From Geosiphon pyriformis uo1 (taxonomy: Eukaryota > Fungi > Glomeromycota), in contig JAAOMT010000299.1 of the NCBI GenBank assembly GCA_016748015.1, forward strand, positions 248,358 through 312,000: a DNA stretch of 63,643 bases. The letters are read 5' to 3'. The translations under genes and the position numbers were made by a program. This document shows positions 1 to 63,525 of this stretch, one piece after another. Below the pieces are notes generated by a model. It made no database searches. It saw only the letters and a list, made by a program, of their open reading frames with translations, and had not been told where the DNA came from. Position 1 is the first letter of the stretch. Every line of letters starts with the position of its first letter.

Positions 1-241
1 ATTTGAATTAACAGCATCAAAACAACAAACAATAAACCCCGAAAACTACAACAATCTCAAACAATATTTAGAGACATTAACAATCCCAACAGATTGGTCC
101 CCAGATGAAAAACATCAGTTACAACAACAAACCAAACAATATTTTCTACACAACAACATTATCTATCATCAAAATTTCAAAAACCCAACCAAACCACTCA
201 GATTAATACAAAAACAAGAAAAAGAGACCATTTTATACAAT

Positions 242-9001: not shown

Positions 9002-9003
9002 AA

Positions 9004-25023: not shown

Positions 25024-26543
25024 AATGTTTTCCTTTAATATGCAGTTGCACGCGTCCAATCCTTAAATTTTCGGTCCGGCCCAACGGGATGAGGAGCAGG
25101 AGACTTCGATTGATCAAGTTTACCTGTTTTTCTTCATCCAAGGCTTCTATTCCCTATACATTCTCTGATTCTCTCGTTCATTATAATTTTTTTATTTTTC
25201 TCTAAGCATCATCAGCTCCTCAGTATCAAAAACCTTTGCAATATTTAGACACAATATAGCATAAAATCGAAGGCTTAAGGATGATTATCGATCTGCGATC
25301 TTAGAGAAATTTAACATGACATCTTAATCCTTACAACCAACGACAACGATAAACGAATTTTGGAATATTCCCAAAGTTAATGTCGCTGTTGCATAATAGA
25401 AACATGGACCATACCACCTAAATGAGGATTCTAAGATTATGACTATAGAGGCAGCGGCGGGGGAGGGAACCTTTGTAGTATATATACATATATATAAAGT
25501 ATTACATAATCAAATATTTATCTTCTATCCTTTTTTTGACATCCACTCACAAAGTTGACCTGGAACAAGGAAGGTGAGGTCCCCTTATATTTCGAAATGG
25601 ATAGTTAGATGTCGTGTTCTTTAAAATATGATTTTCACTTCCATGATCGACAGGAATACCTCAATATTTTTATATTAGGCTTTTCTTCGTGTAATATACT
25701 TGGGCTCAAACTATTTCATCAACTATATAGTTTTTCCTCTTACTAAAGTAATTTCAAGAAGTACGTATTACTTCTTCACCATTAAAACCCTTTCATTAGG
25801 CAAATCGAAACTGCCCTCCCACCGTTGTATTTCCAAAGTTTCTATTAATTTTTCTGGTTTGTTTACTTGATCCTCGATTGATCTTTGAAATGCAATGTTT
25901 TTTATGATGGCTTCCCGCCATTGCAAATTTAATACCCTGCAATTTGCATCGGTTATCTTGAAATTTTCCGTTTCACAGGGTTTTTTCAAAAACAGACTTG
26001 ATAAACACCATATTCATATTATGATTATTTACCCAAACCCCTTGAAATCGAGAATTGATTTTCTATCACAAATAAAATCCTCGTCAATGTATACAAAAAA
26101 GCATTCATGCATTTGATTTACCCCAAATAGTGTTTGTATCATGAGACACGAATAAACAGAATCGGACAAAATTCACGTGACTTTATCTTAAATGCTTCAT
26201 TTTTGAATATGCTATTTCAGTCCTGCTATGGTACTTTTGTAAAATCAAATAAGTTTTAGAACTTGGGAACCCATGATATCATCGACTTAAGATCCTTGGG
26301 TTTTAAAGGTGCAAAAGAAACTGCACCAAAATTTACATGGAATTATTCATCGTAATCAACCAGAGCTAAACTTATATATTAATACTAATATAGTTTAAGA
26401 TATGGAAAGGGATCTAAGAAAGTTTGTAACTACAGGGGAAAATTAATATAAGTGAAGTAAGGAATTTAAATTTGGGCAAGTTAAGTAAGTTATTGATAAA
26501 GGAGCATGCAATAATTTTAAAAAGTAAAAGACGGAGAAATGGT

Positions 26544-28489: not shown

Positions 28490-29253
28490 TTGAAGTTATA
28501 TAGGTTAAATAAAGTTTTACAATTAACTTCAGATTGTATATAAACAAGTTTTATCGGTTCGAAAAAGACGTTTGATTTTGTATGTCGACAAATTAGGGAG
28601 AAGAGAAAGAAGTTGTTTATGTTTGAAAACTAAAGCTTCCGGTTAAATAGGTGTTGAGAGGTTGGGTGTGACTGATTTTGGGGTGGGAAAGAGTCACAAC
28701 AAAATCTTGTTTGCAGGTCTTAACTGAGAGTCAAGAAAGCCTAAATAGACAAAGCTTTAGTATAAGTGTGTATGGGAGTGCGTCAGTGTGTCAAGATGCG
28801 GAAAGGTATTTTCTGTGAGGAGGAAACTTTTTCGGTATTGATAAATATTTCACGGCAGACATAAACCAAGTTTGGGGGTGGTTGTGGTATCGTAGTATCA
28901 TAGTGCCGGTCGGTAAGTATTGGTTGGTTGGGTAAACGGTAAGTGTTGTTGAGGGGCTTTTAGTATAGCGGACGTTTCGGAAGGGCTTGTGTGTCTCTCT
29001 TTCAAAGGACAAAAAAAAGCCTCTGGCTTCAAGATGATGATTTCATGCTGTTTGAAACCTTTAATGACATTGATATGATTGGTTGATTTATTGATGTACA
29101 ACGTCAACACCATGCAATTTCTATCCAAAAATGGAACAACAAACTTGCAAGAGTCGGGGTGCCAATTTAATGAATTTGTTTTTCGACTACGTAACCATCT
29201 GATCAATACATTATACACAATTATTTATATTATTGTTTTAGAATAAAGAAATG

Positions 29254-29276
29254 ACACACACACACACACACACACA
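29254..29276. repeat. (AC)n microsatellite
   Basis: About 11 uninterrupted AC units. Confidence 0.95.
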
Positions 29277-31149
29277 TATTGGACGCCAATTCAAACAACT
29301 CTTTCCATGATTAAAAAGTCTTGTCTTGTGGTTCTTTTCCATGCTTCGGTTAGAATAGTACAATAAAAACCTTATATAATATTTTTCACTTTAAACCGGA
29401 AGAAAGAGAAGTGTAAAGTCAACAATTATATAAATAATTTTATTGTAAAAGGGGACGAAAGTTCTTTTTCTCATTTGATGATTTAAGAATATACTTTGAA
29501 AAATTTTAAATATTACCAAGAATAACAATATTAATAATGAAGACATGATAGAATCGGGAAAGACAGGAAAAAGGCAAAATATATTACATTCGAAGCTAGG
29601 TGTTGTTCCAAGTGCAAATGAAACGGATAAAAAAGGCCATGAGAAGAGAGATTTTATTGTATTCGGAGTTTCTTCAAACGATATTCAGCCAAGAGGTGTT
29701 TCTATTATTATCAATAATAAGAACCAATTGATTATTTTTCAATTCCCTTCTCGGTTTCTTGTCTCGTTAAATCTCTTATAAGACGAAAGAGCCAATTAAC
29801 AAAATCCACTTTCCTCTTTACGAACTTGGTTCACACGATGTGTATAAAAAACCCCTAAACAGGAATATTGATGATTATCAGACAGAATGTCCTTTCATTT
29901 GTGAAACCAAATGAGTTCGCTTTCAGAGATTTTCCGAATGAGTTGTTGGTAAATCCGATAAAACTCGGGATCACTTTTTAAAGGTACGCGATTTAGATGC
30001 TCTCGCGAAATTGAAAATAGACAAGATGACTACCATCTTAGGTCTACTTAATCATGTCATGTTGAACTCTAATGCTGTTGGTTCTATGAGAATTTAAGAT
30101 GCTTATTAAAAATTAAAAATCTTAAATAAAAAATCAATTTTCTGTGATAAATTGATTTCTTTTCTTATGTGTTGCCATGCGGTAAACTCGGTCTTTAAAT
30201 ACTGAAATCCCAAAGCAGAGAAGGCATTCAAAACTTCTTGCATAAGTTCAAACTTTCCAGTGTACCTTTGAGTGCAATAATAAAGTGCCCAAAAATTATG
30301 ATTAAAGGGGGTGTTAAAAATGATGATCCTATTAGGATTATCTAGGAGAATAATGAAAAAATTCCTTATTCAGACATTGCACAATGATTTTCACCATTTT
30401 GAAATTATTTCCAAGTTATTGGGCCCAAATGGTCAAAGATTTTTCCGGCCCATCTTTGTTCTTTGAAAAGTTGTAAAAAGAATACACGTGGGGAAATCCT
30501 GTGGATGTCGTGCACGAAAAAGAATCTCTATCAGCAAGCAGTAAATATGAGATTACGTGTATTAACGTCTGTCTTGCACACTTTCTTCGTCGCTCCATAC
30601 TTCTTTTGTCTCCTTGTTCTTCAAAGCCCGTAAAAAAGTAGGTATCCCACGAACTCACACTACGCAAACAACAACCATGACTTTGCCTTGACTTTGCCTT
30701 GAATTTGTCTCTTAAGAATACCAAAGCCCCCATTGGCCCCTTTTTTAGAACACTTTTCCATCAAATAACGAAAAAAAAAAATAGCACCTTTACTGACCAC
30801 ACGGCAAATATAGATGTCCCCTTACCCAAGATTTTCTTCCCTATATGGCGTTCTATCGTTCACGGCAGGCTTTTGAGACTTTCCACAAGCAAAAGCGAAC
30901 GGGTTTCGGATGATTGACCATTTGCCGAAACATTCAAGTTGTGGAACCTGTTACCTATGCTCGTTTCTGCAAGCTCCAAGTTCTCTGCCACCCTTAATTT
31001 GTAATTTGTTAATGAATTTTTTTAGCTGCTCCCAAACAAATAATGAATGAATAAATGAAATGAACTTTTATTATAAATGAAAATACGTTATCAATATTCT
31101 TACCTCCGTTTTAAATTCAGATCTATAGTTGGAAGCTTTTGCCATAAAT

Positions 31150-35900: not shown

Positions 35901-38900
35901 AGCTAAGTTATCAGCAGTAGAGAGTAAGTTTTTGGTGGCAGAGACCTATGATGATTTGGATACAATGTGAGAATTATTGGAGAAGATAATGGTAGGATTA
36001 GCTAATGAAATATTCTCTAAATATTGATTCAGTATATGTTAATGTTCGAAAAACAAACAATCTTCAAAATTTTCTAGATTAAAATTGCTGGTTGCCAAAA
36101 TTGTTAAAAAATTGGGCTCAGATGATGTTTTTGGTTTTGAGTATCTTGCTAGGAAATAGTTAATTCTGAATTTTAATGAGGCTCATAAGATTATAAACAT
36201 GATTCAATATAATAAAAAGTCAATGAATATTCTTAAGCATCTATCAATAGTTTGGAAAAAGTACAGAAAGTTCAAGCTTTATGAGTCAAAATTGGCTGAG
36301 AAGACATCTATTAGGAAGGCAATTGACAGGCACATGGAGAGTTTTTATTTGAATAAAAGGGGTATGATAAAAAGTATTTTGGACAAGTCTTTTTACAAGA
36401 TGGTTTTGGATTATTTAGTAGTAGATAATAAGTTGGTTTTGGAACCAAATGAGATGAAGCACAGTGTTGATAAGATTATAAAGAGTTGGACAAGAGTGCA
36501 GAAAGTGCTTTTGGTGTTGTCTGATCTCTGGACTTGACAATATATGTCATTGGATTATGTAAAAAATAATGCTTTTTCTAGTATAATGTGCTTTATTAGT
36601 ATAAGTGATTTGCTCTTGGTTGTTAATAATCTACTGGATAGCAAAGCTGCTGAATTGTCTGACATTCCTAATGAATTGTAAAAACATGGTAGTAATGAAG
36701 TTTTGGGGTGGCTTTTAATGTTGTTGAATGCATGTTTGACTGTTAATAGTGTTTTTATGTTATAAAAGAAAGCATAAGTTTTGATGATTTCTAAGCCTTA
36801 TAATTAAAATAGAGTTCTTACAAACACTTGGCCCATAGTTTTAATTAAGACTGCCAGAAAAATTCTTTCTAAAGTTCTGTCTAATTGTATTTTATTTGTA
36901 TGTAGCAAGTTTAGTGTTCTCTGTGATAATAACTTTTTGGTGTTGAAGAGTACATCTACACAATCTCCTGTATTTGCTGTTGGGTTAGTAATTAAGGATG
37001 CTTTCAAGAAGGATAGAAAACTTTGGTTGGTCTTGCAAGATATACACAAAGCATATAATTCTGTTAAATGATATTACTTAAAAACTAGCATGCAGCATAT
37101 TAGGATGTGTAACAGATTTATAAGGTTTTTTGGCAGTATACATGAGAATAAAATTAACAGAGTAATAACTGATTTCAGTTTATCAGATGACTATAGAGTA
37201 GCATAATAGTTTGGATTAAGATGAAGTCTTTTTGTCTCTTCTTTGGAGAATCTTCTATAATCCACTTTTGTGTAAGATTAAAAGACATAAGCAATTGTGT
37301 GAGTACTGAATCAATACTAAGTTTGTTTCAAAAATGGCCAGAATTAAGAGTAGTGGTGGAATAACTTCTTATTTTGTAGCTGGTGTTACAGATAATTATT
37401 TGAGGTCTCAAATCAAATAACAAACTCATAACTTGGTGCTCAATGTTTTGTTTGATATCAGTTGTTAGAAGGGTTATGAATCTAAAGGTTTTGTTAATCT
37501 GAAAGTTTGATTGTAGAGTTTTTTATATAATAGACAAAAATTCAATAGTTGTTTCTATAGCTTCCCAGAATTGTAATTTTGTCAAATTTCTTTCTCAGCA
37601 TGGTGGCCAGTAATCTTCCTGGTAAGCTATCCTCAAATTTATAAGTGTTTTACTCTTGTTTTACAGGTTTTTTACCAGTCCCTATGATGTCTATAACTCA
37701 GTGCTTAATTCTTAATTAATTAGTAAATTCAAAGAAATAACAAAAAGAAAAGTAAAACAAAAAAATAAAGAAATAAACAGAAGCAATTACAAGTTAGTAA
37801 CTCGTCAATAGCCATGATCAAGAGCTATTGTTCTAGTATAGTTAAGTATCAATTACTATTAACATGAAGTGTTGATAGTGGAAAGTGAATTGAGATATTT
37901 GAATAATTATTTATTTGTGATGTGGAAGGTTGCTTAGATCAAATCTAAACTGAGAGGTCTGTCTTTTCTACTTTTAATACTACCACTATATATACATAAT
38001 TGAGATTTCTCAATTCCTCAATTCTTTATACCAGAAATTCTGGAATTCCTGAAATCCTGCAATTTTTTTAAGAAAAATCCTGAAATTTTGAAATCCTGTG
38101 ATTTCTTGTACAAGAATCTTGAAATTTCTGAAATTCTGCAATTTTACTATGAAGAATTCTGGAATTCCACATTTACTACAGCTACTTCTAATTGGTTAAG
38201 TTATATGCTAATATATTTTTTATATTTTATGAGTAATACTGGCACATTTGTTGATAACACAATTTGGGTCAGAAACTGTCAGGCTGCCACTCAATATGCT
38301 TTAAACATTGCCAGTGAGTTTTTTAATATCAATAATATTTCCATCAACAATGAAAAAATGATGGCTATTCCCATTAATTAGGGAGTTAGGATTGCTTCTT
38401 TGAATATTAGTGGTCAGCTGATTTCAATTGCCAAAAAAGATAAAACACATTATTATTTGGGAATTTTTTTGTCTATTAAAAGATTATTCAAGCCAAGTGT
38501 TTTTAGGGCTTATTCTAATGTTTGGTTCTTTGTTAATGTTGTTTTTAAGAAGACTGTTATTAATAAACAGTTCTTGTATTTAATGTTAGCTGTTTTGCAG
38601 TCTATAGTTAGCTACTAAACTTAGTTCAGTTTTGTTTCAGCTAATATGTGTTGCAAATAGAATACCATAGTTAGGAAGAGGCTCAAGCTTAAAGCATGCC
38701 TGCTCCATGATTTTTTTAATACTACTTTATATCATCCTTCTTTGTATAACTTAAAATCTTTTGAACAAGTGCAATCTGAAAAAAAAGTGGCTTTTTTGGT
38801 GCTCTTTTCTAATGTCTTGAGCATTCTTGGGTGGTTATTTAATCATAGATTCTTAGATTTGCAAGTTTTAAAATAGGCTCCTTTGGATCCTTTGCAATTT

Positions 38901-47500: not shown

Positions 47501-48202
47501 ATTACCACAGCCCAATTTGACCTCATTCCTTGTCTCTTAAAATCACTGTTTATGTCGATCACATTTTTTCTAGCCAATGATGCAGCCACTTTTATGCTTT
47601 CTTTTGAAGTAAACATTAATCAGATGATTTCTTCAAATTTTGAAAGAGTAGTGGTCCTCTCAAAACCATTGACTGGTGAAAAAATTTTCTTAATTAACTG
47701 AGTTTTTGCCATTGCAGATTTCTCTTCCACAGCCAAGAGATTAATATCTAAAGCAAATGACCTCTTAACTGACACTTCTACAGAAGTTTTAATAATCTTT
47801 GGATCAATTCACTTTTTTTTCAGAGAAATAGGCAAGTGAGGAGAAAGCACAATTTCATCATCATCCATAATGAAATCAGGAGAGCCAAGTGGAGAGCCAA
47901 ACATTGTACCAGTATTAACACGTTTTGCCTTGGGAGTGGTTGCAGCTAAACCCAGAAGAGACTTTCTATTCACATCTGTTATGCCAACATCCTCATCATT
48001 ACCAGACAGACTATCCACATCAGAGTACACACTATTACCAGGCCCAGATTTACTCAAAGACATATTCTTTTCATCACCAGAGTATTTAACATTGCCAAGA
48101 ACCACCTTCTTTTTTTGAGCAAAAGAACTACCAACAGGACCATGGAAAGTACCTTTGGGCACCCTTTTTTTTGACATATCACTGTCTGAAGCAGTCTTTA
48201 AA
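41503..48202 (-). mobile_element. LINE copy 4 (ORF1 46333-48177, ORF2 41645-46336), degenerate, 5' UTR missing
   Basis: Poly(T) 41503-41519; ORFs 44738-46180 (APE), 43997-44689 (RT, QGEVFSPLLW, FVDDTIW), 42605-43078 (RH), 46333-47616 (ORF1 with CKKCRKLSHSALKC). Confidence 0.93.
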
Positions 48203-51200
48203 TTTTTTTTTTTTTATTTCATTTAACAAGTGAAGTTCAAACACTACCTAGTACAATACATCATTAAATAATCTAAACTAGGCATAAATCATGCCTTTTC
48301 TACATGTGACCAGCCACTCAAATCAGTCAGAACAACACTATGTACTTATATGGACAGAAACCTCCTCACAAGCACCAGAAAAAAATAAACAAGACCTATG
48401 AAACCCAAAACGAATGCCAATTGCATTAGCAACCCCCAACAATCTAATAACACCTGCTGAAAGACCCATGGAAAAACCAGAAACAGAGACAGGAATGGAG
48501 CCATCACGAGGAATTAGTCTACCCTTCTTCATCACTGCCCAGTGTTTCACACGAACCAACCAGATTTCATCTCAAAACACAGCACAAAACTCACGCACAA
48601 AGACCACTATGTTACAAGCTACCACCCTGGAATCTTTAAAAACAGAGACAAATTTACAATACCAATTATTGAAAATGAATCCTTTACATAGTGCCACTCC
48701 AACCACACAATTTAAAGTACAAGTGAACAGTAATTGTGAAATACACAAAGAAGAATGAGATAAATCAGAGTGTGCCTTCCAAACAGCCACATAAGTGTTC
48801 ATCAAATGCTCACGGCCAACAGCGTCAAAGGAGCAGGAAAAAACATGATCAGAGATCTCAACATCACCACAGAATAAGCACACTACACTGGAATAAAGCC
48901 TATCATATAGATGCTTATGCACGGCGACAGGAAGTTGATGATGCAGAGCCTTCATGAAATAAGTCCGAAAGCCAGCAGTATGCAAACTAGTGAAGCCAGC
49001 AGCCATGTGAAAATCTGGGTGCCACACTGAAACAGACCTGGCCCAATCAACATCACTTCACAAATTATCTACCAAAACTCGGGAACCAAATCCAACCTCC
49101 CAATGCACCTGATGAATTGACCGGAAGATATCATGAACAAAATGTCTTGAATTACCAGAAATGGCAGATTCACCAGCTCTTAAAACTGTTCATCAACCCT
49201 GTGCAGCAGCCACCAAGAAGATAAGGCAGTGACCCCTGCAAGTAAGTCAGCACATTTGTTGCCAGGAACACCTGAATGACCTTTTACTTTGATCCAATTC
49301 ACATCCAAATTCTTATTACGAATAATATTAGCAATGTAGTGATGCTCGATCCAACAACAATTCCTGAAGTCTGGCCAAGTCAGTAGGGATTCAGATTTGC
49401 ATGCATCCAAAGCAGCCTGGCTGTCTGAGAACAAATCCACCAAATGAAAAGAGGGAACACACTCGAGAGCCAAAGCAATGGCCTGCAACTCCGTAAGCAT
49501 AGAAGAAACCAAACCAGACACCTTTACACCCAACTCTGAATCAATGTCCTCAAAGAAAACAGCAGCACTAGTCTTCATACCAACAGTATCCAAACCATTT
49601 AAAGACCCATCCATATATACAAAGAGGCGAACAGCAGTGTCAATGTCCAACAAATTGTTACAAACAGTACCAAAATTGCGAGAAAGATGAATATCAGGAG
49701 AAGCATAATCACTCACAGGAAGAGAGCACACAGAAGAAGGAACAACACTACCAAGAAACTGAACAGAAATATCAAATCAAACAGGAACTGGGCCACGGAG
49801 ATCCAGCTTTTTCCAATGTTTGAAGGTTTTCCAACTGAAAGCAACACCATGTCTGTTATGAAGCTGTTCCACGAAAGCAATACCATAGTGCTTGAGCAAA
49901 AGGACACATTTGAGAAATCTTGGCTCACTTAGAACAAGAGACATAAGAGTGCCACTCCAGAGATGAAAAGCACTGGCCAGAGAAGCACCCAAAGATAAGT
50001 CACACCCAGAAAAAATATGAACCACACCTGACAGAAAGTTGTTTGAAGGGCTGACATAAATGTGGACTGGAAACAGCAAAGGGTGACAGGGATGCCAACT
50101 GATAGCCTGAAGATTATGAAACCTGTGAGAAAACAAATGACCCAAAATACCAACTGAATTTGTAAAAGCCAAAACAGCAGCCAATTTACTCTCAGCTTAA
50201 ATCTGTTCAAAAGTTTTAAAATTGTACAAAGAAGAATGATAAACTGTGTCATTGGGGAAATTGAGTGGCAGCCCAAACTTAGATTTCAAGCACCTGCAAA
50301 CCATAGAGTCCCACTTATTACACACACTAACAAAAATAAAGCTGAACTGAGTTCTGTAGCTGATGATAGGCAGAAGAACTGCAGAAGCCAAATATGCGAA
50401 TTGTTTGTCCGAGACCACCTTCCTCAGAACAAGATTAACAAAGAACCGAACATCTGAGTGAGCTTTAGCCAGACTAGGCGTTGAAAGACCTTCAAAAGAC
50501 AAAAAAATACCCAGATACTAATGAGGTTCACTCTTCTTGGCAATAGAGATAGGCGAGCTACTGATAGTCAAAGAAGGATTCACAATCCGGCTGTTAATAG
50601 GAATGGCCACAGTCTTGTCATTGTTAATTGAAATGTCATTAATCCTAAAAAATTCATTAGCAACATTAAGGATGTGCTGCATAGCAGTCTGGCTATCACC
50701 AACCCAAATAGTATCATCGACAAAAGCACCAGCAGCCAAGAATAATGTTAGCCTGGCCTGAGGCTTTACCTGGCCAGTTCTGGAAATAAAATGAGAGTTT
50801 AACCTGTAACCACACATGCTTTCTTGTCGTTTGACTTCACACAAGAGTGAATCATAAAATATACGCTAAAGAAGTGGCAAAAAAACCTCTTCTTGGTCCA
50901 GACCATTGTGAACATGGTAACCATTAGTCAAGCCAAAATCTGTCATTACTCTGTTGGTGTGACCATTGTGAATGTTGTCAAAAAATTTAACAAACTTGTC
51001 ACACATCTTAATCTTAACCAAACTCCTTCTGAGATGCACCCAGCCAATAGAATCATACACTTTTCACATATCTTGCAAAACCAGCCACAGTTTCCAGCCC
51101 TTTTCCAATACATCTTCTACCACAGAACCAATGGCAAAAATGGGCAATTGTGTCATTGTACCCTTTAATACAGAGAAATTGTCCCCACACAGAACATCAA

Positions 51201-53402
51201 ACCTGCTGCAGGCTGAAGAAATTCTGTTTGAGAGAATCTTAGAAAGAATCTTGTGGGCCATCTCAATCAATGCAATAGGATGGGTATTTGTGAGAACGTC
51301 CTCTCATTTATACGGTTTAGGAATCATTAACACCCAAGCTTCCTTCCAAGGTCCAGGTACAGATTCATGTTCCAAACAAAAATTCAGCAATAACAAAAGC
51401 ATATCCAAAATCTTTCTATCACAGTGTTTCCACAATTCATTAAAAATACCAGAAAGACCAGCCGCCTTACCATCGGGCAAATTAGAGACAACTGTAAGCA
51501 ACTCATCAAAACCAATCAAACACATTACTTCAGAGAAGACATCATTAAAGACATAGTTCAAAGGCTAAAATTGGCACATCCAGTCATTAGAAATATCCAG
51601 CACCACTGCACACTTCCTAGTCCAATCTTCCATGATCTTATCGACCTTAGATTTAACCAAATTCAGCTCCAGGACCAACTCCTCACCTGCGACCAAGTGA
51701 TTCAGTACCATCTTATGGAAAGGACGCTCCAGGACACTTCTGATGGTGCATCCCTTATCTACTTCAAAACTCTCCATCCTCCTCTCAATAGCCTGCCTAA
51801 CACAAGATTCCTCAGCACACTTAGACTCCATCATCTTTGAAGAGTGGTAAACTTTCCTTGCCTTAGCCAATTCAGAGTGAATAGCATCAAAACCAGAACC
51901 CAAAAGAAATAGAGACTTCACTGGTAAAGCGCCAACTAAGTTAAGCCTGATCCATGTATCCAACAAAGAAGCAAAATTCCCACCAAAAACCAGACAAGAG
52001 GCCTTAACCAGCTTAGACACAAGCAGTTCCAGTCTATGAAACCTAGAAGAAATCTTATTGAAAACACTATTATAACTCTTGAACCATTTTTTCTTGAATG
52101 TTCTACTAGCTGAGAGAATCAATATTTTGCGAACAATATCTCACATTGCATCCTTATCCAAAAATTTTATAGCTGCAACAAATGTGTCTGAAAGCATAGA
52201 AGCATTAGCAGCTGTAGCATTCTTAAACTCCAACCATTTTCTTTCACTGGCATTTTTAACATTGAACTTTCAATGATCTTTATTGGTTTGTTTGCATAGT
52301 GACAGCAGCTACACATTCAATAAACCACCCAGACTCACAGAAACAGAAACAGCCCTATGATCAGTATCAAAAAAATCCTCAACACCCACCATACCACAAT
52401 CCATGATTGCATTAACTAAACTAGAGGAAACCAACACATAATCAATCATCTTGGCAACACCACAAGAATTGCACCATGTCGGTAACTTCACAAAAGTGCT
52501 TCCACTTAGAGAGTTGACCAGACCCAAATCAAAACACTTCCTGAAACTGGCACATTTATGAAACCCATCTTCATTGAAATCACCACCAAGAATGACAAAA
52601 GAAGTCTTATTTACAGCTCTGACAATGAGAGAATTGATATCACTAGCCTAAGAAAATTAAACCACTGAAGACGCACCAGCATACAGCCCCAGAATAGACA
52701 CAGAAAGTTTATTCCCAAAGAGCAGTCTTATTGACAACAGCCGACCAGGTACCTCTGAAATCTTGCACACATGCTTTGCCAAAGAAGAGTCCATAATTAT
52801 TGCAACACCAGATCTCATGTGACCAGAATTCAGACCAGAAGTAAAAACATGAACACCATCAAACTTATTGGCAATCCACGGACGAACCATGCCTTTTAAC
52901 TTTGTCTCAGTAACAATAGAGACCAGATTGTTCATATCCTTATGCCAACATATAATGTCTGCCTGCTTTGCACAATTGTTCATACCTCTGACATTACACG
53001 CAGCAATTTTCCAAATTAAGTGAGTCATTGAGAAGACAGAGTAATTAACAAACCTGAACCAGAGCACAGAATATTTAACTTATCCAAAACTGAACCAACT
53101 GAGGCCTCCAAAGCAATCAATTTTGTTTCCAAACCACCCACTTTGGCAGTAAGAACTTTGGAACTATTAGAGCTGAGCTCAACAACAGCATCATGAATGA
53201 CGGAGGGAAGAGTACTAGACGAGACCAAAGCAGTATCCACAATCATATCAGAATCCACATCAGAAGTCAAAGTCTCAGAAACAGCAGGAAGAGAGCTCAA
53301 AGATGGGGTCACCACAGGAACCAAACTAATAGATTCCAGTCGAACCAAAATGCCAGAAATGCGGTCAGTCAAAAGCTCCAAAAAGCGCTTCAAAATTGCC
53401 AG
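48203..53402 (-). mobile_element. LINE copy 5, 3' part (ORF2 48338-53028, ORF1 end 53025-53402); ORF1 interrupted by Gypsy C
   Basis: Poly(T) from 48203; WKIAACNVRGMN, AGAFVDDTIWVG, VYMDGSL...FSDSQAA...KVKGHSGVPGNKCAD, CLFCGDVEISDHVFSC. Confidence 0.93.
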
Positions 53403-53406
53403 CTGG

Positions 53407-54259
53407 TGTTACTCATAAAAATATAGAAAATATATTAGTTTAATTATTAGCCAATCAGAAGTAGGCATAGTAAATGTGGAATTCCAAGATTCCTCTCAAG
53501 AATTGCAGGATTCCAAAAATTTCAGGATTCTCTGATGAGAAATTGCAAGATTCCAGAATTCCTGGATTTTTTTCAAAGGAATCACAGGATTCCTGTCGTG
53601 AAGAATTGAGGAATTAAGGAATCTCAATTATGTATATATAGCAGTAATGTTAGAAACAAAAAAGACAGAATCGATACCACAGAATCTTTAGCCTAAAAAT
53701 GCAATCATTAAATAAATAATTATTTTATATTTCAATCTACTTCCCCATTATTAACCCTTCATGTTGATAGTAATTGATACTTAACCACACTGGAAAAATA
53801 GCTCTTGATCATGGCTATTGACGGGATACTAATTTGCAAATTGTCTTGGCTTATTTCTTGGCTTTCTTTATTTTCTTTTATTTCTTTTTTTTCTTTGTTT
53901 TATTTTGATTTGTTGTTGTATACTAATTGATTAAAGATTAAGTGCTGAGTTATTGACGTCAAGGATAGCCTGGTAAAAGACCTAGAAATATGGGTAGGAT
54001 TTTATATATTATCGGATAGCTTACTAGAAGGGCACGACTGCCAGACTAAATCTGGCCACCATGCTAAGAAAGAAATTGGGAAAACTCTTGGAAAGATACA
54101 TCTACTATCGACACTATTGAATCTCTGTCTATTATACAAAGAACTCAACCAAAACCTTCAGATACAACATCTTTAAAACATCATCAATGGCAATAGCTTT
54201 TGAGCACCAAGTTACGGATTTGTTATTTAATTCAACAGCAGAAATAATTACCTGTAACA
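53407..54259 (+). repeat. 5' LTR of Gypsy C (853 bp)
   Basis: TGTTACTC...CTGTAACA; direct repeat of 62653-63521. Confidence 0.95.
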
Positions 54260-54261
54260 TT

Positions 54262-54278
54262 TGGTGCTTCCTGTGAGG
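54262..54278 (+). promoter_or_regulatory. Primer-binding site of Gypsy C (TGGTGCTTCCTGTGAGG)
   Basis: TGG start 2 nt after the LTR; resembles the complement of a tRNA 3' end (identity not determined). Confidence 0.85.
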
Positions 54279-54289
54279 TATAATCCTAC

Positions 54290-56110
54290 AGAGAACCAGC
54301 ACTGACAACACCAAACCAAAAGTGGCAGAATCAGAAAACATAGGAGCAAATCATTTAGGATTCACAAAATCTTTATTTCAATACTATTGTTAATACTTGG
54401 GATTAAACCACAATCATATGTTTGCCAAATCAGCCTTCAATTTCTATGTCAATGAAAAAATTTTCTCTTTATTAGGAACACCAGTGAATACTGAATCAGC
54501 AAGAGAAACTTTTTATAAGGAATTAATTCAAAACACCAACTTACCAACAAATCATAATTTCGCATCCATTATCACTGAGATCAACAAAGAAATTAAACAT
54601 CACCTCAACAAAGATATCCAATTACATATGCTAGCGAAGGCAAGAAAAAATTACAAACACCAGCAATAACACCCAGAAAAATACAGCCACCTGCTTGGAA
54701 GAAAAACAGAGTTGAAACTCCAAGCAATCCATTCTACCACTATACACCTGGAAGCGCCATCAACATATTATCAACAGACGCGTTTCCATCAATTGTGATA
54801 TCAGCATTTGGACGATTCCCATTCCAAAGTAGACAAAGGAAAACAGAATTGCTAGAACCATATGGCGAATACTTTGAGAGATTTAATTTACAATCATCAA
54901 CCTCATCAGGACTTCGATCACTACTGCCTCCACCAGATTTCAGAATCTCAGATCCGTGGGAAGTGGCAGAATCAGAAAAAAAGGAAGAAGAATCAGAGGA
55001 TCAAGAATTCACTTACCAAAACTCAATCACTGAAAACCTTAAAGGTGAAACCCCGAATCTTCAAGCTCAGCAAAAATTAAATATAGAAAATTCGGAAATC
55101 GGAACTCTGAATCAGCAAAGACAGAACAATCCAAACTGTAAATTAATTAATCAGCAAAACTTACCTTTGGTAATTGTCATCAATTAACTGCCAATTAATT
55201 CAGTAGCTGAACCCATACAACAGCCACTTCAACTACCACCTCAACACCCAGTACAACAACAACTGCTTTAACAGCCACCACAACTATCTAACTTAGATCC
55301 AATGGCCTATGCACCAATTGCAAAACTCGACAACTTTACTGGCGAAGAGAATGATGCTCAAGTATGGCTGAACAATGTAGAAAAAGCCATTGCAGCCAAT
55401 GGATGGAATGATGCTTGAGCAATGCAAGCCATTCCCTACTTTTTCAAGAATACTACCAATTCATGGTATCAGAGCTTAGTTAATAAACCACAAGATTTCA
55501 ATGCCTTCAAAGCAGAATTCCTAAGATACTTCAGCAACAATAACAGCATCAATTGTCTAGTCAATACATTCACCACCATGAAACAAAGAGAAACTGAAAC
55601 AGTTATCACTTACCTGGGACACTTCCATCAAAACTTGTGCCAAATTCAAGTAATTGATAATGACTATTTCACAGCACCACAGATACTCAACCAGTTTATC
55701 TGTGGCCTACACAGCAGCATCTTGCAACATGTACATCCATTGCATCCTGGCACACTTCAAGATGCAGTCACACACGCCAGAGATTTTGAATCCGCTGAAT
55801 TAGAAGCTAACCATGCCCAAGCCATTAATCTAGTAATGAACAGATTATCTGAATTGGATTCCAAATTGGAGAAGTTCAGTGAATCAATTAATAAAAGATT
55901 GGAAGGATACTTAGCTGACAATCACACCATTTATCAGCCTTCACAACGACGCAATAATCAAGGAAATTCCAATCGTGGCCAAAATTAACCACATCTATCT
56001 TCATTAACCAATCAACAGTGGCAACAGAAAACACGTATCTGCCACTATTGTGGTAACCAAGGACATATCCAAATTGATTGTCACCAGCATTTAAATAACC
56101 AACAATCGGG
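54290..56110 (+). pseudogene. Gypsy C gag with CCHC knuckle
   Basis: PIAKLDNFTGEENDAQVWLNNVEKAI...QILNQFICGLHSSIL; CHYCGNQGHIQIDC at 56040-56081. Confidence 0.85.
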
Positions 56111-56393
56111 AAATTAATATCGAAACTCCAATTGCCAGTTCCAAACTCCGAATCACTATCCAAATCAAGGTTAAGACCAATATCAAAATAATTACCTGCC
56201 AATGACACAGCAACCAATCTATCAACTGCCAGTATATCAACCTCCAATTTATCAGCCGCAGCCACAAGTAATATATCAACTGCAGCCACAAATCATCTAT
56301 CAACCCCAACCAATTCAAACACCACCCCAGAACCCAGCACAAATGACATCAGACAACTCTTGATCCAGAGTTATTCAAAACTGAAGATCGGCG

Positions 56394-56999
56394 ATGGTTG
56401 TTTACCAACCAATTCCCTGTTTGCTAAACTCACCATTAAGATCATGCACCCAGAATTTGGATACCAGTCGCATCCAAAACCCAAATTCCCAACATTATTT
56501 AAGTCTCTTGGTTACTCCAGAAGATACCACATCCAATTACACAGAATCCAATCAGCATGTACCTACCAACATGATTCCACCAGCAACTATATCTAGCAAT
56601 GAATTCCTAGCAGCCATCTTTTCTTTCAAACTCAAAGAAAACACACCAATACTATTATTCAGTGGAGCCACTCTCGAAGAGAAACCCATAACAGCAATGT
56701 ACACGGATGCCAAAGTTGATGGTCACTCCATCAAACTCATCTTAGATAGTGGATCAGCTGGCAGCATAATCACAAGACAGCTCATGAATCAATTAGGTCG
56801 CCAAGTTGATCAAGCTGCCAGCGCTAGAATTATCATTGCTGATGGCACCACCAAAACACCTATCAGTGAGATAGATGATTTCCCTATAGAAATTAACGGC
56901 ATCATAGTACCCATTAAAGTCTTAGTAATAGACACCACCCAATATCAAGCCCTAATTGGTAATGACTGGCTGTTTAAAACCAACGCTGTGCTCGATTGA
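56394..56999 (+). pseudogene. Gypsy C aspartic protease
   Basis: IKLILDSGSAGSII...YQALIGNDWL. Confidence 0.9.
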
Positions 57000-58299
57000 A
57001 TGACCTAAGAGTTAATACTCAGCCAGAATGGAAGACACACATGAGTACCAGCAACGTGTGACCACTTCAAGGCTATCAACACCACAGCACCACTAATTGA
57101 CTTTGACAAAGAGAAACCGAAGCCTACCTGAAAAGCCTACTAAATGTTGTGGGCTGACGAAAAGCACAACGAATTGCCGCCAATACTCTTCTGAGACAAC
57201 AACAACAAGGGAAAAGGGAAACAAAAGAAAGAACTTACCTGGGAAACCAATAATCTGACATGGACTGACAACAACGAGAGCAAACCAACTTCAAGCTGGG
57301 AATGGGAAAAGGACAAAAAAAATAAAAGAAAAGGGAAAGAAAAAGAGACCACCCAAACCACCACCACTTATAATACCTACACTATCCCACAACAATCTAC
57401 TTATCATCGACCTAAGCTTATATGCATCGATTGTGGCAAGAAATTGTCGTCAATAGATATATGCTGTGGGGATGATGAGGAATACCACACCGCAACAAAG
57501 TTCTACTGTCGTCCATGCTTACTTGAATGCTTTGGAAGACCAAAAAGGCAAGGAAAATAGAATAACCAACCTTGTCTCACTTGTGGGGAGACCCTGCTAG
57601 ATGAAAGGATGTGGAATGACATCTTAGAACGTGAAAGAACGTGCGACATGTCATGTTAATACACAATTCTAATAAGCGACTGGGTAAGGAAAAGAACCCC
57701 AATAAAAGCAGCCTGGTGAAGAGCCGTACAGTGACTGGACAGTTGTCCACATGATGATAACAAAATTTGGCGAATGGCACTTGCCAAAATCGAAGGAGCG
57801 ATATCAGAAGAGATAAAAATGATCAAAGACAACCCCCCAGAACCTTTAGAGCTTGACTGGGACGCAGAACCCATCATAAATCTTCTGGATCCGGAACAAT
57901 TCCATGAACACTACCAAGAATTAGCACCCACAAGGGAAGAACAAGAACAACAATTAGAGCAGTTGAATGCTTGACTATGTCAACACTGCCTAATTCCCTG
58001 TGACTTCCAGTATTGTGATAAGTGTGACCTCATTTACAATCTACCACTATGCATGATTTATGCAATCTCTGAAGAAGAAAAACCAATCAGCAGCTACACA
58101 TCAGAATCAGAATCGCCGATTAATCGCGATTCAAACCCCGACAATGATGACGACAATAATGGTTCAAGCTCCGTTCAAAATGACAATGACAACGACAATG
58201 ATTCTAACTCAGATTCAAACTCCGATTTAAACTACAAACAATACATTGCACTACCAGATCTCTCCAAGAAACAAGAGTTGAAATAGTATAGTGACAATG

Positions 58300-58710
58300 G
58301 GAAAGGTATTATACCAGAATGTGTGCATAATACTGATGTAGGGTTTGATCTGAGATACCCAGGAAAAAATGCCATCAAATTGGAACCACATTTATGCACC
58401 TGCATTGATCTGAAAATAGCACTAGAAATTCTGGCAACAACAATGGTTCAATTAGCATCTAGGAGTAGTTTAGCAAAAAGAGGGATTAATATAAGAGAAG
58501 AAATAATTGACGTGGGATATGTAGAAAATATTATTGTCATGCTACAAAATGACTCAAAAAAGGCCTATATAATAGAGCCCAATAAAAAGATAGCACTGGC
58601 AATATTCCTGCCTCTGGTTAGAGTAGCTCAATTAGTATCAGTGGGAAATAGAGAGGAATTAGGAATAACAGCAAGAGGGATACAAGGATTTGGATCAACA
58701 GGTAGAATAG
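58300..58710 (+). pseudogene. Gypsy C dUTPase domain
   Basis: TDVGFDL, ASRSSLA, IIDVGYVENI, KIALAIF, RGIQGFGSTG: the five trimeric dUTPase motifs. Confidence 0.92.
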
Positions 58711-59273
58711 ATATACCAGTTAATATGGCTGAGGAAGAAATTGTTGGCCAAGGAGAAATTATCTCAACCAGTTAAGCTATTTCCATCTCACCATATAACC
58801 AGTACATGCTAGCAATAGAAAGGAAGGAAAAAGAGCAAGAACAAATTTTTGAAGCTGAAGCAAACCTTTGTGAATCAGGAGAGATTGGGTTGATCAATCT
58901 CCACATACCAGCCAAAAGCTATAACAGCATAAAAATTCCCATCTACAACAACACTGGCAATATCATCAATATACCAGAAGGAACCACCATTGGATATTTA
59001 ACCACAGAAATAGAAAACCAACCACCAAATCCCATTCCAGACTTTCCACAACTTTGTGGATATGTTGACATCACATCACAAACAATCTATGGACGAGATA
59101 AATGTTATTTGCTCCAACCAAAACAATTGGAACAAATGAACATGGGAAACTTGGATCCACTCCAATGTATGCAGCTCAAGATGTTATTTAACCAGTTCAA
59201 TGACATCTTTGCCAGCGAAAATGAGTTTGGCCGAACCAATATCATCCAGCATTAGATCAAGACTGGAGATGCA

Positions 59274-60536
59274 ATGCCAATTAAACAAAGAGCATACAGA
59301 GTGCCACCAGCCAGCCACAAAATTATTCATCAAGAGATAAACCAAATGCTTGACAACAGGCTAATTCAGCCATCAATGAGCCCATGGTCATCACCAGTGG
59401 TACTCGTCCGTAAGAAGAATGGAAAGATCCGATTTTGTGTGGACTACAGAAAACTCAATGGTGTAACTCGTGAAGACAGCTATCCAACTCCACGGATACA
59501 GGAATTATTTGATGCTTTTGGTGGAAACAAATGGTTCTCAACATTAGACTTAGATAGTGGTTACTGGCAAGTAGCCATAGATCCAGCTGACAAAGAAAAA
59601 ATGGCATTCACCATGAGAGAAGGAAATTTTGAATTTGAAGTAATGCTATTCAGTTTAACCAATACACCAGCCACTTTTCAATGGCTAATGGAAATTGTCT
59701 ATACTGGCTTATTGTGAAAATCAGTAGTTGTATACTTGGACGACACCAACATATTCTCAAAGACATTTGATGATCATCTTTATCATCTTCAACAGATGTT
59801 CAAAAGACTAAGAAGAGCAGGACTAAAGTTAAATGCAACAAAGTGCTTCTCTGACAAGACAGAACTAAAATTCTTGGGACACATAGTCAGCAAAAACAGC
59901 ATTAAAACAAATCTGGAGAAAATTGAGATAGTAAAGAACTTTCCAGTGCTGACCAATATAACAGAACTGAAATCATTCTTGGAATTTGCCAGCTATTATC
60001 AACGTTTTATCAAGAACTTTTCCAAGATAGCACAGTCACTCAACCAACTGCAAAACAAAAATACAAAATATGAATGGACAGAAAATCAACAAGAAGCTTT
60101 TGATATTCTGAAAAGAAAGCTCATCCAAGCTCCAGTACTGATCTATCTAGATTACAGCAAACCATTTATTATCACTACTGATGCATCTGGCCAAGCATTG
60201 GGAACAGTATTATCTCAGAAAAGACCAGACAGCAGAGAACACCCAGTAGCATATGCCAGCAGAGGTTTAACACCAGCTGAAAAGAACTATGAAACACCAG
60301 AACAAGAACACTTAGCAATATACTGGGCAGTCATAAAATGAAAAGAATACTTGAGCCAGAAGTTTGAAGTGCACACAGATCACAAAAAATTAACATCACT
60401 CCAAAAACAAAAATTTGGAGATGGAAGACAGTCAAGATGGAAAATGGCACTTGCACCATACAATTATACTATACATTACAAAAAAGGAAAAGACAATAGA
60501 AATGCTGACGGTTTGTCGCAAATGAGACAAATCTAA
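59274..60536 (+). pseudogene. Gypsy C reverse transcriptase + RNase H
   Basis: SPWSSPVVLVRKKNGKIRFCVDYRKLN, LDLDSGYWQV, YLDD, TDASGQALGTVL, VHTDH, NRNADGLS. Confidence 0.93.
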
Positions 60537-60739
60537 GAACATTTCAGCCCAAAAATATAACAAAACCAGAACAATACCAACGAAAAATATTAACAATTGC
60601 AACATTATATAAACACTCAACAGTTCAAGAAGAATTTATCTTAAACAGAACAAAAGAGTATCAAACAACAATCAAAATATTTTATCACTTACCAAAATAT
60701 ACTTTATTGAAAAAATAAAAAAGATTCAGATCAACCAAC

Positions 60740-61892
60740 CAGAGTAATTACAGAGCCAGAAAAAGAGACAATATTATTCAACATGCACTCAAATCCAACA
60801 GCAGGACATTTTTACAAAGAAGCAACCATGGAAAAAACCAGAAAAAGATACTATTGGCCATCAATGTACCCAGATATCATTCAATATGTTCAAAATTGTG
60901 ATGCTTGTTAGTAAAGAGAAGGAACAAGACCCAGTGAACCATTAAGACCAATCAAAGTGAGACAACCATTTGACCATATTGGAATTGATTTAGTTGAACC
61001 ATTAACAATCACCAGCAAAGGAAACAGATACATAACAGTAGCTATGGACTATCTTACTAAATGGCCAGAGGTGAAAGCAATTCAAAGAGCGGATGCAGAA
61101 TCCGTGGCCGAATTCGTTCATCAGGATTTAATTTGTCGACATGGATGTCCAAAAAAATTATTATCAAATCAAGGAACTTATTTTGTGAACAGAACATTAA
61201 CAGAATTAAGCCAAAGATTTGGAATTAAGAGACCATTATCATCATCATACCATCCACAAACCAACAGATTAGTAGAAAGATTCAACAGAACATTGTGTGA
61301 AGCAATAGCTAAACTCAGTCAAGAAAACCAGAACAATTGGGATTTGTTGATACCATCAGTACTATTTGCTTATCGGACAATAAAACAAGATACTACACAA
61401 GCAACACCATTTGAATTAGTATATGGTAGAACAGCAACACTACCTGTAGAAATAGAAGTCAGCACATACCCAACCAAACCAATAACAGAAGAGAATTTCA
61501 AAAATACATTGTTGAGAAGAACATATGACTTAATAGAAACATTAGAAAACAAACAACAAAGAGCAGCTGATAATATACAAAAGTCACAAGAGAAACAAAA
61601 AAAAAGACATGATAACCAACTGTTAGATAAACCAGTTGAATTCAGAATTGGAGACAAAGTATTACTACATTGTACCAAAGCAGAAAAACAGTGGAGTGGA
61701 AAATTCAACCCCAAATGGAACGGACCATTTTACATAAAAGAAATTCTAGGAAATAAAGCTTACAAATTAAGATTGGATAACAAAATTTTAACCAAAGCAG
61801 CACATGGAGATCGACTAAAACCATACCACAACATCACACTACCATCTACCAGTAATATTCCACAATTAGGGGTACAGAGAATACTAGTTTGA
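60740..61892 (+). pseudogene. Gypsy C integrase (HHCC, DDE, GPF), no chromodomain
   Basis: MHSNPTAGHF...YYWP...CDAC; IGIDLV; YHPQTNRLVERFNRTL; WNGPFYIKEILGNKAYKL. Confidence 0.93.
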
Positions 61893-61979
61893 TCAGATGA
61901 GATTCCACGAGATCTGGAACCAATTGTTATTATTAACAACAACACGTTAAATTGATCCATCCAAAGAATATATAAAAAC

Positions 61980-62639
61980 ATGGTAGATGTGACAGGAAAT
62001 ATCAGAAAAATAGAAATTACAAACAACATTTACTCACTAGCACAACAACTCTTTCAATTAATCCAACACCAGGAAATGAAGATTACAATCAATCAACAAA
62101 CCATCCAATATCAAGATACTAGAAAGACATTTCAACTCAGAACACAGAAGAAAACTAAAAATACTGTGGACAAACTTATTGCAAAAGTAAAATTAGCAAT
62201 AAAAGAGGTGACAAAAGAGTCACTATATCAAGAATTGACTAAAGAAACTTGGAATTGGTGGATACAACAATTTTCATAAAACTATTGTTATTTTTACTTG
62301 GGACAACATGTAAATATCCAGAATCTATATATGGATAAAACAAAATGATTATTCGACAAAAAAATACTACAACAATTAGAACATTTTGTGGGAAAGAACA
62401 ACTTATCCACACAGGCCTGAGCCATATACTGAATACACACAGTATTTCAGGATAGACCAGAAATATTGCTTAACAAAGCAATGGATATGGTTACCAGTAA
62501 TCAATTGGGAAAAATCACTAATGCTCAATTTGAAGAATTACAAACCCAAATAACACAAGTAATTCTTGAAAATAAAATCCAGGAAATACTTCAAAAGAGG
62601 GAATTACATGAATTGGATTTTGACGGAGCTCAATATTAA
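61980..62639 (+). pseudogene. Gypsy C ORF3 (219 codons in one frame, 4 internal stops)
   Basis: Single frame from ATG 61980 to TAA 62639; internal stops are TAA and three TGA, each explicable as CAA/CGA C>T; similar to ORF3 of element A. Confidence 0.75.
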
Positions 62640-62652
62640 AAGAAGGGAATAA

Positions 62653-63521
62653 TGTTACTCATAGAAATATAGGAAATATATTAGTTTAATTATTAGCCAA
62701 TCAGAAGTAGACATAGTAAATATGGAATTCCAGGATTTCTCTCAGGAATTGCAGGATTCCAGGAATTTCAGGATTCCTTAACGAGGAATTGCAGGATTCC
62801 AGAATTCCTGGATTCCTCTCAAAAGAATCACAGGATTCCAGGAATTCCAGGATTCCTGTTGTGAAGAATTGAGGAATTGAGGAATCTCAATTATGTATAT
62901 ATAGCAGTAGTGTTTGAAACAGAAAAGACAGAATCGATACTACAAAATTCTTAGCCTAGAAATGCAATCATCAAATAAATAATTATTTTATATCTCAATT
63001 AACTTCCCCACTATCAACCCTTCATGTTGATAGTAATTGATACTTAACCATGCTGGAACAATAGCTCTTGATCACAGCTATTGACGGAATATTAATCTGC
63101 AAATTATCTTGGCTTATTTCTTGGCTTTCTTTATTTTCTTTTATTTCTTTTTTTTTTTGTTTTATTTTGATTTGTTGTTGTATACTAATTGATTAAAAAT
63201 TAAGTGCTGAGTTATTGACGTCAAGAATAGCCTGGTAAAAGACCCAGAAATATGAGTAAGATTTTATATATTATTGGATAGCTTACCAGAAGGGCATGAC
63301 TGCCAGACTAAATCTGGCCACCACATTGAGAAAGAAATTGGGAAAACTCTTGGAAAGATACATCTACTATCAACACTATTGAATCTCTGTCTATTATACA
63401 AAGAACTCAATCAAAACCTTCAGATACAATACCTTTAGAACATCATCAACAGCAATAGCTTTTGAGCACCAAGTTACAGGTTTGTTATTTAATTTAACAG
63501 CAGAAATAATCATCTATAACA
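62653..63521 (+). repeat. 3' LTR of Gypsy C (869 bp), preceded by PPT AAAAGAAGGGAA (62638-62649)
   Basis: TGTTACTC...CTATAACA. Confidence 0.95.
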
Positions 63522-63525
63522 CCGG

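What the first reader, a model, noticed from the sequence alone, without database searches (positions are those of the whole stretch)
53403..63525. All LTR insertions have 4-bp target sites centred on CpG (NCGN): possible (methyl-)CpG-directed integration
Seen: C has TSD CTGG/CCGG, and the host LINE codon context (GAC CGG CTG = DRL) supports CCGG as the original. The solo LTR has CTGG/CTGG (37380, 38239). The single visible flank of A is GTGG (3200) and of B is CCAT (9880). In all four independent insertions the central dinucleotide is CG or its deamination product TG/CA, although the host TEs are CpG-poor. All four landed inside other TEs, none in the gene island. Known: fungal chromoviruses usually make 5-bp TSDs. 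Inference: the integrase, or an accessory reader such as the Cys-rich domain or ORF3, prefers CpG, possibly methylated, as a chromodomain-independent way to target silenced repeats. n=4, and two sites are one-sided.
Basis: partly seen in the sequence, partly recalled or inferred. Interest (0 to 1): 0.78.

Follow-up and report, generated by a model that had tools for sequence, protein, structure and literature searches.

The report
Fungal retrotransposons with Ginger1-like CCGG targets
These decayed jumping genes, likely from a mycorrhizal-type fungus, duplicate four host bases when they insert, and those bases look like intact or decayed CCGG, a target so far described for Ginger1 DNA transposons, so their integrase likely reads that sequence itself, while sensing of methylation remains untested.

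Summary
C is flanked by CTGG/CCGG and the solo LTR by CTGG/CTGG, and 4 bp is the only duplication length that fits both. A's and B's single flanks are GTGG and CCAT. Four of four centres being CG/TG/CA has a chance of about 6e-4 (post hoc). All four also fit the tighter pattern NCGG/CCGN after decay.

Out of sample, 4 of 85 related loci gave a usable LTR flank: CCGT, CTGT, CCAG, GTAG. Three of the four fit (p about 3e-4). The integrase profile also retrieved two complete Ginger1-type DNA transposons with perfect CCGG duplications.

The elements are chromodomain-less Ty3/gypsy retrotransposons with a YPYY/GPY-F integrase. Their closest named relatives are Rhizophagus integrases.

The 'accessory reader' idea is not supported, because relatives with no detectable Cys-rich domain or ORF3 show the same flanks. 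Methyl-CpG sensing is neither shown nor excluded. A generic flexible pyrimidine-purine centre, known for 4-bp integrases, explains part of the signal. Read data were confounded, and one row disagreed.

Verdict: likely an intrinsic CCGG-like target preference, a new variant of a known kind, resting on about eight sites.

The parts
53403..53406 (.). left TSD copy of element C, CTGG (decayed)
53407..54259 (+). 5' LTR of element C (TGTTA...TAACA), followed by PBS-like TTTGGTGCTTCC
55419..55988 (+). gag capsid-like segment of C (stops and frameshifts elsewhere in gag)
   Evidence: Pfam Retrotrans_gag, Ty3_capsid
56706..56996 (+). aspartyl protease of C
   Evidence: Pfam gag-asp_proteas
57399..58067 (+). 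Cys-rich insert between protease and RT; also in B; not found in the 99 related loci searched
   Evidence: (no Pfam family)
58287..58772 (+). dUTPase of C; also in B at 4985-5467 (-)
59256..60460 (+). reverse transcriptase and RNase H of C
60580..61860 (+). integrase of C: degenerate YPYY-like motif, H2C2 zinc finger, DDE core, GPY/F SH3-like end, no chromodomain
61977..62639 (+). ORF3 of unknown function; distant homologues in A (1548-2222) and L005
62653..63521 (+). 3' LTR of C, preceded by a polypurine tract
63522..63525 (.). right TSD copy of C, CCGG (intact)
37380..37383 (.). TSD copy of the solo LTR, CTGG
37384..38238 (-). solo LTR of the C superfamily, inside a LINE RT region
38239..38242 (.). 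TSD copy of the solo LTR, CTGG
2..1294 (+). integrase of element A with clear YPYY-like motif (67% identical to C's)
2221..3199 (+). 3' LTR of element A
3200..3203 (.). single visible flank of A, GTGG, lying just behind B's RNase H stop codon
3204..9003 (-). internal region of element B (protease, Cys-rich insert, dUTPase, RT, RNase H), interrupted by A
9004..9879 (-). 5' LTR of element B
9880..9883 (.). single visible flank of B, CCAT (ATGG on B's strand), start of host LINE ORF1 homology
48200..53402 (-). host LINE of element C; continues at 63526-63643
23000..31000 (.). gene island with preserved CpG (o/e 0.85; HSF and FYRN domains); no LTR insertion

Best explanation
These are chromodomain-less Ty3/gypsy LTR retrotransposons, likely of a Glomeromycota-type fungus, whose integrase makes a 4-bp duplication and likely prefers, by reading the DNA sequence itself, a CCGG-like palindrome with one outer base free (CCGG, CCGT/ACGG, GCGG), the target described for Ginger1 transposases. 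Shown: the 4-bp duplication at two sites, the flank letters at eight sites, the domain layout, and the same flank pattern in relatives with no detectable Cys-rich insert or ORF3. Inferred: the two-fold symmetric intasome bends the target at the flexible central C-G step and favours the outer C/G pair. After insertion the two copies lie in methylated repeat DNA and decay independently (CG to TG or CA, occasionally on to TA), giving the CTGG, CCAG, GTGG, ATGG and CTGT seen today. Nesting in other TEs likely reflects repeat abundance and selection against insertions in genes, not a methylation reader.
For: Window: 4 of 4 sites fit NCGG/CCGN after one decay step (background 6.7%, p about 2e-5 post hoc). 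C keeps one CCGG copy, and LINE paralogues carry CAT at that codon. Between C's LTRs 66 of 69 differences are transitions and 6 of 9 CG-containing positions differ.

Out of sample: the pattern was noted before any relative's flank was read. Of 85 AMF-like loci, 4 gave a homology-defined 3' LTR end with host flank: CCGT, CTGT, CCAG, GTAG. Three of 4 fit (p about 3e-4) and 4 of 4 are C-YR-N or N-YR-G (p about 2e-5). These relatives fall in different subclades of the fungal integrase tree.

Outer C1/G4 occurs at 11 of 16 positions against 4.8 expected under a generic not-T-YR-not-A rule (p 0.002; relatives alone 5 of 8, p 0.03).

The same profile retrieved two complete TIR elements with CCGG on both sides: L099 9113-12557, with PHD and a weak Ulp1 match, and L096 about 8575-13130. 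Ginger1 TSDs are CCGG 75% and CCGT/ACGG 24%, and Ginger1 shares YPYY and GPY/F motifs with some Gypsy integrases (PMC2836005, passages).
Against: Only eight sites, six of them one-sided, and only two still hold CG. The centre alone hardly separates CpG from any YR step: 1 TA of 8 has p 0.15, and 2 CG of 8 has p 0.047. GTAG needs two decay steps.

In contigs of the one run that holds this family, the 7 flanks starting with C have the majority letters CTAA, and summed depth past 63523 equals only 1-2 contigs. Exact CCGG or run-through CTGG flanks are therefore rare there (6 of 13 rows shown).

Two matrix-only ends, not counted, disagree with each other: L007 TCAG fits and L029 ATAC does not. The tree gives no supported link between the fungal clade and the Ginger1-like group.
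Confidence: 0.62

Rival explanations
1. Generic bendability: like other integrases that make 4-bp duplications, this one only prefers a flexible pyrimidine-purine step (CG, TG, CA or TA) in the centre and avoids T first and A last. TG and CA would then be the original targets, not decayed CpG.
For: All four 4-bp retroviruses analysed enrich central YR and disfavour T at position 0 and A at +3 (PMC4422553, passages). 8 of 8 counted sites are YR-centred and obey that rule. GTAG (L030) and the CTAA read row fit without extra steps, and the solo LTR has TG in both copies.
Against: That enrichment is modest (about 63% above a 22% background in PMC4422553), not 8 of 8. Outer C1/G4 exceeds this rule (11 of 16 vs 4.8, p 0.002). 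Two intact CG centres in CpG-poor DNA (p 0.047), and related TIR elements with perfect CCGG.
Confidence: 0.2
2. Methyl-CpG-directed integration: the integrase itself (or a host factor) favours 5mCpG within CCGG, steering insertions into silenced repeats without a chromodomain.
For: 0 of 4 insertions lie in the gene island, although it now holds 206 of 354 CpGs and 84 of 136 CGG/CCG words of the host DNA counted (nominal p 0.02-0.03). TEs of Rhizophagus irregularis are generally CG-methylated (bioRxiv 10.1101/2021.03.30.436303, passages). Cytosine methylation created strong target sites for an avian retrovirus in vitro (Kitamura 1992, seen only as cited in PMC11054761).
Against: The island comparison is confounded: host TEs held more CpG when the elements arrived, and insertions in genes are purged. 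No methyl-reader or chromodomain family matched integrase, Cys-rich insert or ORF3. Relatives with no detectable copy of those extras show the same flanks. A CGCG target exists in Drosophila (PMC5408687), which has almost no CpG methylation (recalled).
Confidence: 0.12
3. Chance or boundary error: a post-hoc pattern in four sites, two of them one-sided with assumed LTR ends.
For: n is small, A and B lack a second flank, and metagenome contigs can be chimeric at repeat ends.
Against: The ends of A and B are supported without reference to the flank letters. The pattern recurred out of sample (p 3e-4 to 7e-3).
Confidence: 0.05

Closest known systems
Ginger1 DNA transposons (Bao, Kapitonov, Jurka 2010; PMC2836005, passages read)
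   Same: 4-bp TSD of CCGG or CCGT/ACGG; TGTNR termini; integrase with YPYY, zinc finger, DDE and GPY/F motifs. The window integrases are 33-46% identical to the Ginger1-like rows recovered here, versus 25-34% to the other non-fungal integrase rows (L089 37-38%).
   Different: The window elements are LTR retrotransposons with gag, protease, RT and RNase H, no TIRs and no Ulp1/OTU tail, and are fungal. That paper found Ginger1 only in animals, and no Gypsy lineage grouped with it at significant support.
ZAM subgroup errantiviruses of Drosophila (PMC5408687, passages read)
   Same: Ty3/gypsy LTR elements with a CG-containing 4-bp palindromic target (CGCG) and a heterochromatin bias.
   Different: AGT...AnT termini and an env gene. 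The target is CGCG, not CCGG, and heterochromatin targeting there is attributed to 5'-UTR repeats binding HP1a.
4-bp-TSD retroviral integrases PFV, MoMLV, PERV, XMRV (PMC4422553, passages read)
   Same: Central flexible YR step; T first and A last disfavoured. PFV integrase is the second-best solved relative after Ty3.
   Different: The preference is weak and not CCGG-specific.
Fungal chromoviruses (5-bp TSD, chromodomain; recalled)
   Same: Ty3/gypsy domain order; elements found among silenced repeats.
   Different: No chromodomain here, and a 4-bp TSD.

Membership tests
Ty3/gypsy LTR retrotransposon (Metaviridae) | Two LTRs with TG...CA ends, PBS and polypurine tract | tested here: met
Ty3/gypsy LTR retrotransposon (Metaviridae) | gag, protease, RT, RNase H, integrase in that order | tested here: met
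   best solved relative Ty3
Ty3/gypsy LTR retrotransposon (Metaviridae) | Placement in a named lineage by RT phylogeny | not tested
   no reference set was on hand
Chromovirus | Chromodomain at the integrase C-terminus | tested here: not met
   only SH3_Tf2-1 in A and C
Chromovirus | 5-bp TSD (recalled) | tested here: not met
   k=4 fits both two-sided sites, k=5 does not
Ginger1 | TIRs of 40-270 bp and no RT | tested here: not met
   direct LTRs and RT present
Ginger1 | 4-bp CCGG or CCGT/ACGG TSD | tested here: inconclusive
   7 of 8 counted sites fit NCGG/CCGN with at most one decay step, 2 intact; most are one-sided
Ginger1 | YPYY motif upstream of the zinc finger, and GPY/F motif | tested here: met
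   by eye against the paper's text definition: clear in A and relatives, degenerate in C
Ginger1 | C-terminal Ulp1 or OTU protease domain | tested here: not met
   absent in A and C; weak Ulp1 plus PHD in L099
Ginger1 | Integrase groups with Ginger1 transposases | tested here: inconclusive
   Ginger1-like rows group at 0.92, but their attachment has 0.30-0.65 support; no Athila/Tat or chromovirus rows
Errantivirus (ZAM subgroup) | AGT...AnT termini | tested here: not met
   TGTTA...TAACA
Errantivirus (ZAM subgroup) | env as third ORF | tested here: inconclusive
   ORF3 has no significant Pfam match and no usable Atlas hit
Methylation-directed integration | Preference for methylated over unmethylated target | not testable with these tools
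   no methylome, whole genome or assay

The most novel reading that the evidence does not exclude
A widespread Glomeromycota lineage of LTR retrotransposons has an integrase that directly senses methylated CCGG and so targets silenced repeats without a chromodomain. It would burn out its own targets as they deaminate, and would be the Gypsy lineage from which Ginger1 DNA transposons took their CCGG-specific transposase.
Probability: 0.12. Interest if true: 0.8.

Novelty: new variant of a known kind. Interest (0 to 1): 0.5.

Why it matters
A CCGG-type target is described for Ginger1 DNA transposons. In six literature searches (listings only) I found no LTR retrotransposon, fungal or other, reported with it. 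Repbase entries, subscription journals and supplements were not searched.

An RT-bearing lineage that shares Ginger1's motifs and apparently its target is a concrete candidate for the Gypsy relative that Bao et al. could not identify. It makes the Gypsy-Ginger1 question testable with a behavioural character as well as a tree.

It also predicts that CpG decay removes this family's landing sites in old repeats. Practically, 4-bp decayed TSDs are likely to be missed or mis-scored by LTR finders. If methylation sensing were shown, it would be a new route to heterochromatin targeting.

Tried and rejected
No whole genome is held, so the genome-wide TSD logo could not be made.

An exact LTR motif found 0 stretches in metagenome contigs. 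Viral contigs gave 0 of 19 and 4 of 29 distant matches. Five contaminated MAGs held no further LTR copies.

Sequencing runs: one holder with 53% of the words; no RNA holder listed. Loose ends behind the LTR 3' end had majority letters TTGG (37 contigs), ATGG (28) and TA|TTGG (11), with CTAA for the 7 C-first contigs. G at position 3 cannot come from C's PBS (TTTGG) and suits NYGG flanks. But shared letters further out show the pool is mixed with internal sequence, and single flanks are not shown, so I did not count these rows as support.

An automatic HSP-end screen was swamped by coding matches. Most of the 85 fungal-type loci are collapsed assemblies in which the LTR runs into the PBS, or are too short. 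Of 28 loci scored by the end matrix, only L007 and L029 had both a located LTR start and a fair score; they were left out of the main count.

IQ-TREE timed out and FastTree was used. ORF3 of A had no usable Atlas hit. No tRNA gene lies in the window.

Rejected: the chromovirus comparison, an accessory reader as a requirement, and 'none in the gene island' as evidence of targeting.
Full report
OBSERVATION. The window is a stack of AT-rich, CpG-depleted LINEs and LTR elements around an 8-kb gene island that keeps its CpG. Element C spans 53407-63521 with LTRs 90% identical, flanked by CTGG and CCGG. The solo LTR at 37384-38238 (minus strand) is flanked by CTGG and CTGG. Only a 4-bp duplication fits both sites. 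A's 3' LTR ends at 3199, chosen by a matrix trained on 24 other LTR ends, and is followed by GTGG. B's 5' LTR starts at 9879, where LINE ORF1 homology resumes, next to CCAT. In host TEs 15.9% of 4-mers have a CG/TG/CA centre, so four of four has p about 6e-4. The tighter NCGG/CCGN pattern with one decay step has a 6.7% background, p about 2e-5. Both figures are post hoc.

WAS IT CpG? At C one copy is still CCGG, and three LINE paralogues have CAT at that codon, which is what an Arg CGT codon decays to (genuine His cannot be excluded). Mutation here is almost all transitions: 66 of 69 LTR differences. Six of 9 CG-containing positions differ, and CA/TG also decay to TA (14 against 87 unchanged). 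Contigs differ from the window copy mostly by C>T and G>A. So CCGG is the likelier original at C. The solo site and B's site fall on free third codon positions and cannot be polarised.

WHAT THE ELEMENTS ARE. C encodes gag, protease, a Cys-rich insert, dUTPase, RT, RNase H, integrase and an ORF3. Neither A's nor C's integrase has a chromodomain. The named close hits are Rhizophagus integrases at 48-50% (1133 hits, best 120 listed). The best solved relatives are Ty3 and PFV integrases. A and most relatives show the Y-P-Y-Y pattern before the zinc finger and a GPY/F motif, judged by eye against the text of PMC2836005 (passages). That paper reports 4-bp Ginger1 TSDs as CCGG (75%) or CCGT/ACGG (24%), and finds no Gypsy lineage grouping with Ginger1 at significant support.

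INDEPENDENT SITES. No whole genome was available. I noted the NCGG/CCGN pattern in the same batch as the scans that fetched relatives (best 80 of 507 confirmed metagenome matches, and 45 genome loci). Of 85 fungal-type loci, four had a 3' LTR end defined by homology and followed by unique DNA. L017 (CCGT) and L059 (CTGT) were defined by their own 5' LTR. L051 (CCAG) and L030 (GTAG) were defined by PBS-adjacent ends of relatives. Three of four have a CG/TG/CA centre (p 0.007) and fit the tight pattern (p 3e-4); four of four are C-YR-N or N-YR-G (p 2e-5). Two further ends rest on the matrix only and disagree (L007 TCAG, L029 ATAC); they are not counted. The same profile retrieved two complete TIR elements with CCGG on both sides, L099 and L096. 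L099 has a PHD finger and a weak Ulp1 match, as described for Ginger1. In a FastTree of 49 rows, A and C group with L005 (0.99), the flank-bearing relatives lie in other fungal subclades, and the Ginger1-like rows form a group (0.92) whose position is unsupported. Sampling is biased by the query and lacks reference lineages.

READS. One run holds 53% of the element's words. Loose ends behind the LTR had majority letters TTGG, ATGG and TA|TTGG in 37, 28 and 11 contigs, but these pools are mixed with internal sequence. The 7 C-first contigs read CTAA, and only 1-2 contigs ran through CCGG. This is inconclusive and partly against a uniform CCGG/CTGG flank, although multi-step decay in an old family could produce it.

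MECHANISM AND RIVALS. The best reading (0.62) is an intrinsic CCGG-like preference of the integrase, followed by decay of the two copies. The generic rival (0.20) comes from PMC4422553 (passages): integrases with 4-bp duplications enrich a flexible central YR step and avoid T first and A last. All eight counted sites obey that rule, and the centre alone barely separates the models (1 TA of 8, p 0.15; 2 CG of 8, p 0.047). The outer bases do: C1/G4 at 11 of 16 positions against 4.8 expected (p 0.002; relatives alone p 0.03). The methyl-CpG rival (0.12) has one hint: the island holds 206 of 354 present CpGs yet none of four insertions. It also has a precedent, methylation-enhanced targets for an avian retrovirus in vitro (cited in PMC11054761, passage; original not read), and AMF TEs are generally methylated (10.1101/2021.03.30.436303, passages). 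But the hint is confounded by past CpG content and by selection. An accessory reader is not needed: no homologue of the Cys-rich insert, dUTPase or ORF3 was found in the flank-bearing relatives, although L030 and L051 do not reach far upstream of RT. No reader family matched these parts.

COMPARISON AND NOVELTY. The elements are Ty3/gypsy members, not chromoviruses and not Ginger1, but they likely target like Ginger1. Four-base TSDs are common among Drosophila Gypsy families, mostly TATA or ATAT (PMC3276498, passages), and CGCG in the ZAM subgroup (PMC5408687, passages). Searches (listings only) showed no LTR retrotransposon with a CCGG target. A recent AMF TE survey has no TSD mention in its main text (PMC11952901, term search), and the Troyka paper (PMC12440569, passages) added nothing on this. 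Repbase, subscription journals and supplements were not seen and could hold such a description. An unreviewed note on another piece of this genome reports the same NCGN pattern (e1-10582392); I could not check it and do not count it as evidence.

VERDICT. A real feature; first reading partly supported; new variant of a known kind; interest 0.5.

Noticed in passing
window 3216-3218 (-) and 60533-60590 (+); alignment A1: pol looks split: B and C have a stop just after RNase H, and most database relatives are stand-alone integrases of about 420 aa starting with Met. This agrees with earlier notes e1-10606126 and e1-10606155. A inserted about 15 nt behind B's stop.
   Followed up: partly
window 57399-58772 (+) and 4985-6222 (-): A Cys-rich insert plus dUTPase lies between protease and RT in C and B, and was not found in 99 related loci.
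   Followed up: partly
window 61977-62639 and 1548-2222; L005 2456-3115: ORF3 behind the integrase is shared by A, C (22% identical) and the closest metagenome relative; no family match.
   Followed up: partly
window 53407-54259 vs 62653-63521: 66 of 69 LTR differences are transitions, most outside CpG (14 CA/TG-to-TA pairs against 87 unchanged). Cytosine decay here is not limited to CpG.
   Followed up: partly
window 62653-63521: Summed contig depth over the LTR reaches 1e5-1e6 against about 100 per contig, which suggests a very abundant family; not a copy number.
   Followed up: no
L099 9113-12557; L096 about 8575-13130: Complete Ginger1-type DNA transposons with CCGG duplications sit in contigs filed as bacterial MAGs, which implies eukaryotic contamination of those genomes; host not identified.
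   Followed up: partly
L098 2681-7879: A complete LTR element with integrase before RT and a 5-bp GGGTC duplication, also in a MAG contig.
   Followed up: no
window 15000-16060 and 31150-32900: Very AT-rich (8-16% GC) low-complexity tracts next to LINE ends, similar to each other in both orientations.
   Followed up: no
window 23000-31000: A sharp CpG boundary (o/e about 0.85 against 0.0-0.3 outside) marks a gene island with HSF and FYRN domains.
   Followed up: no
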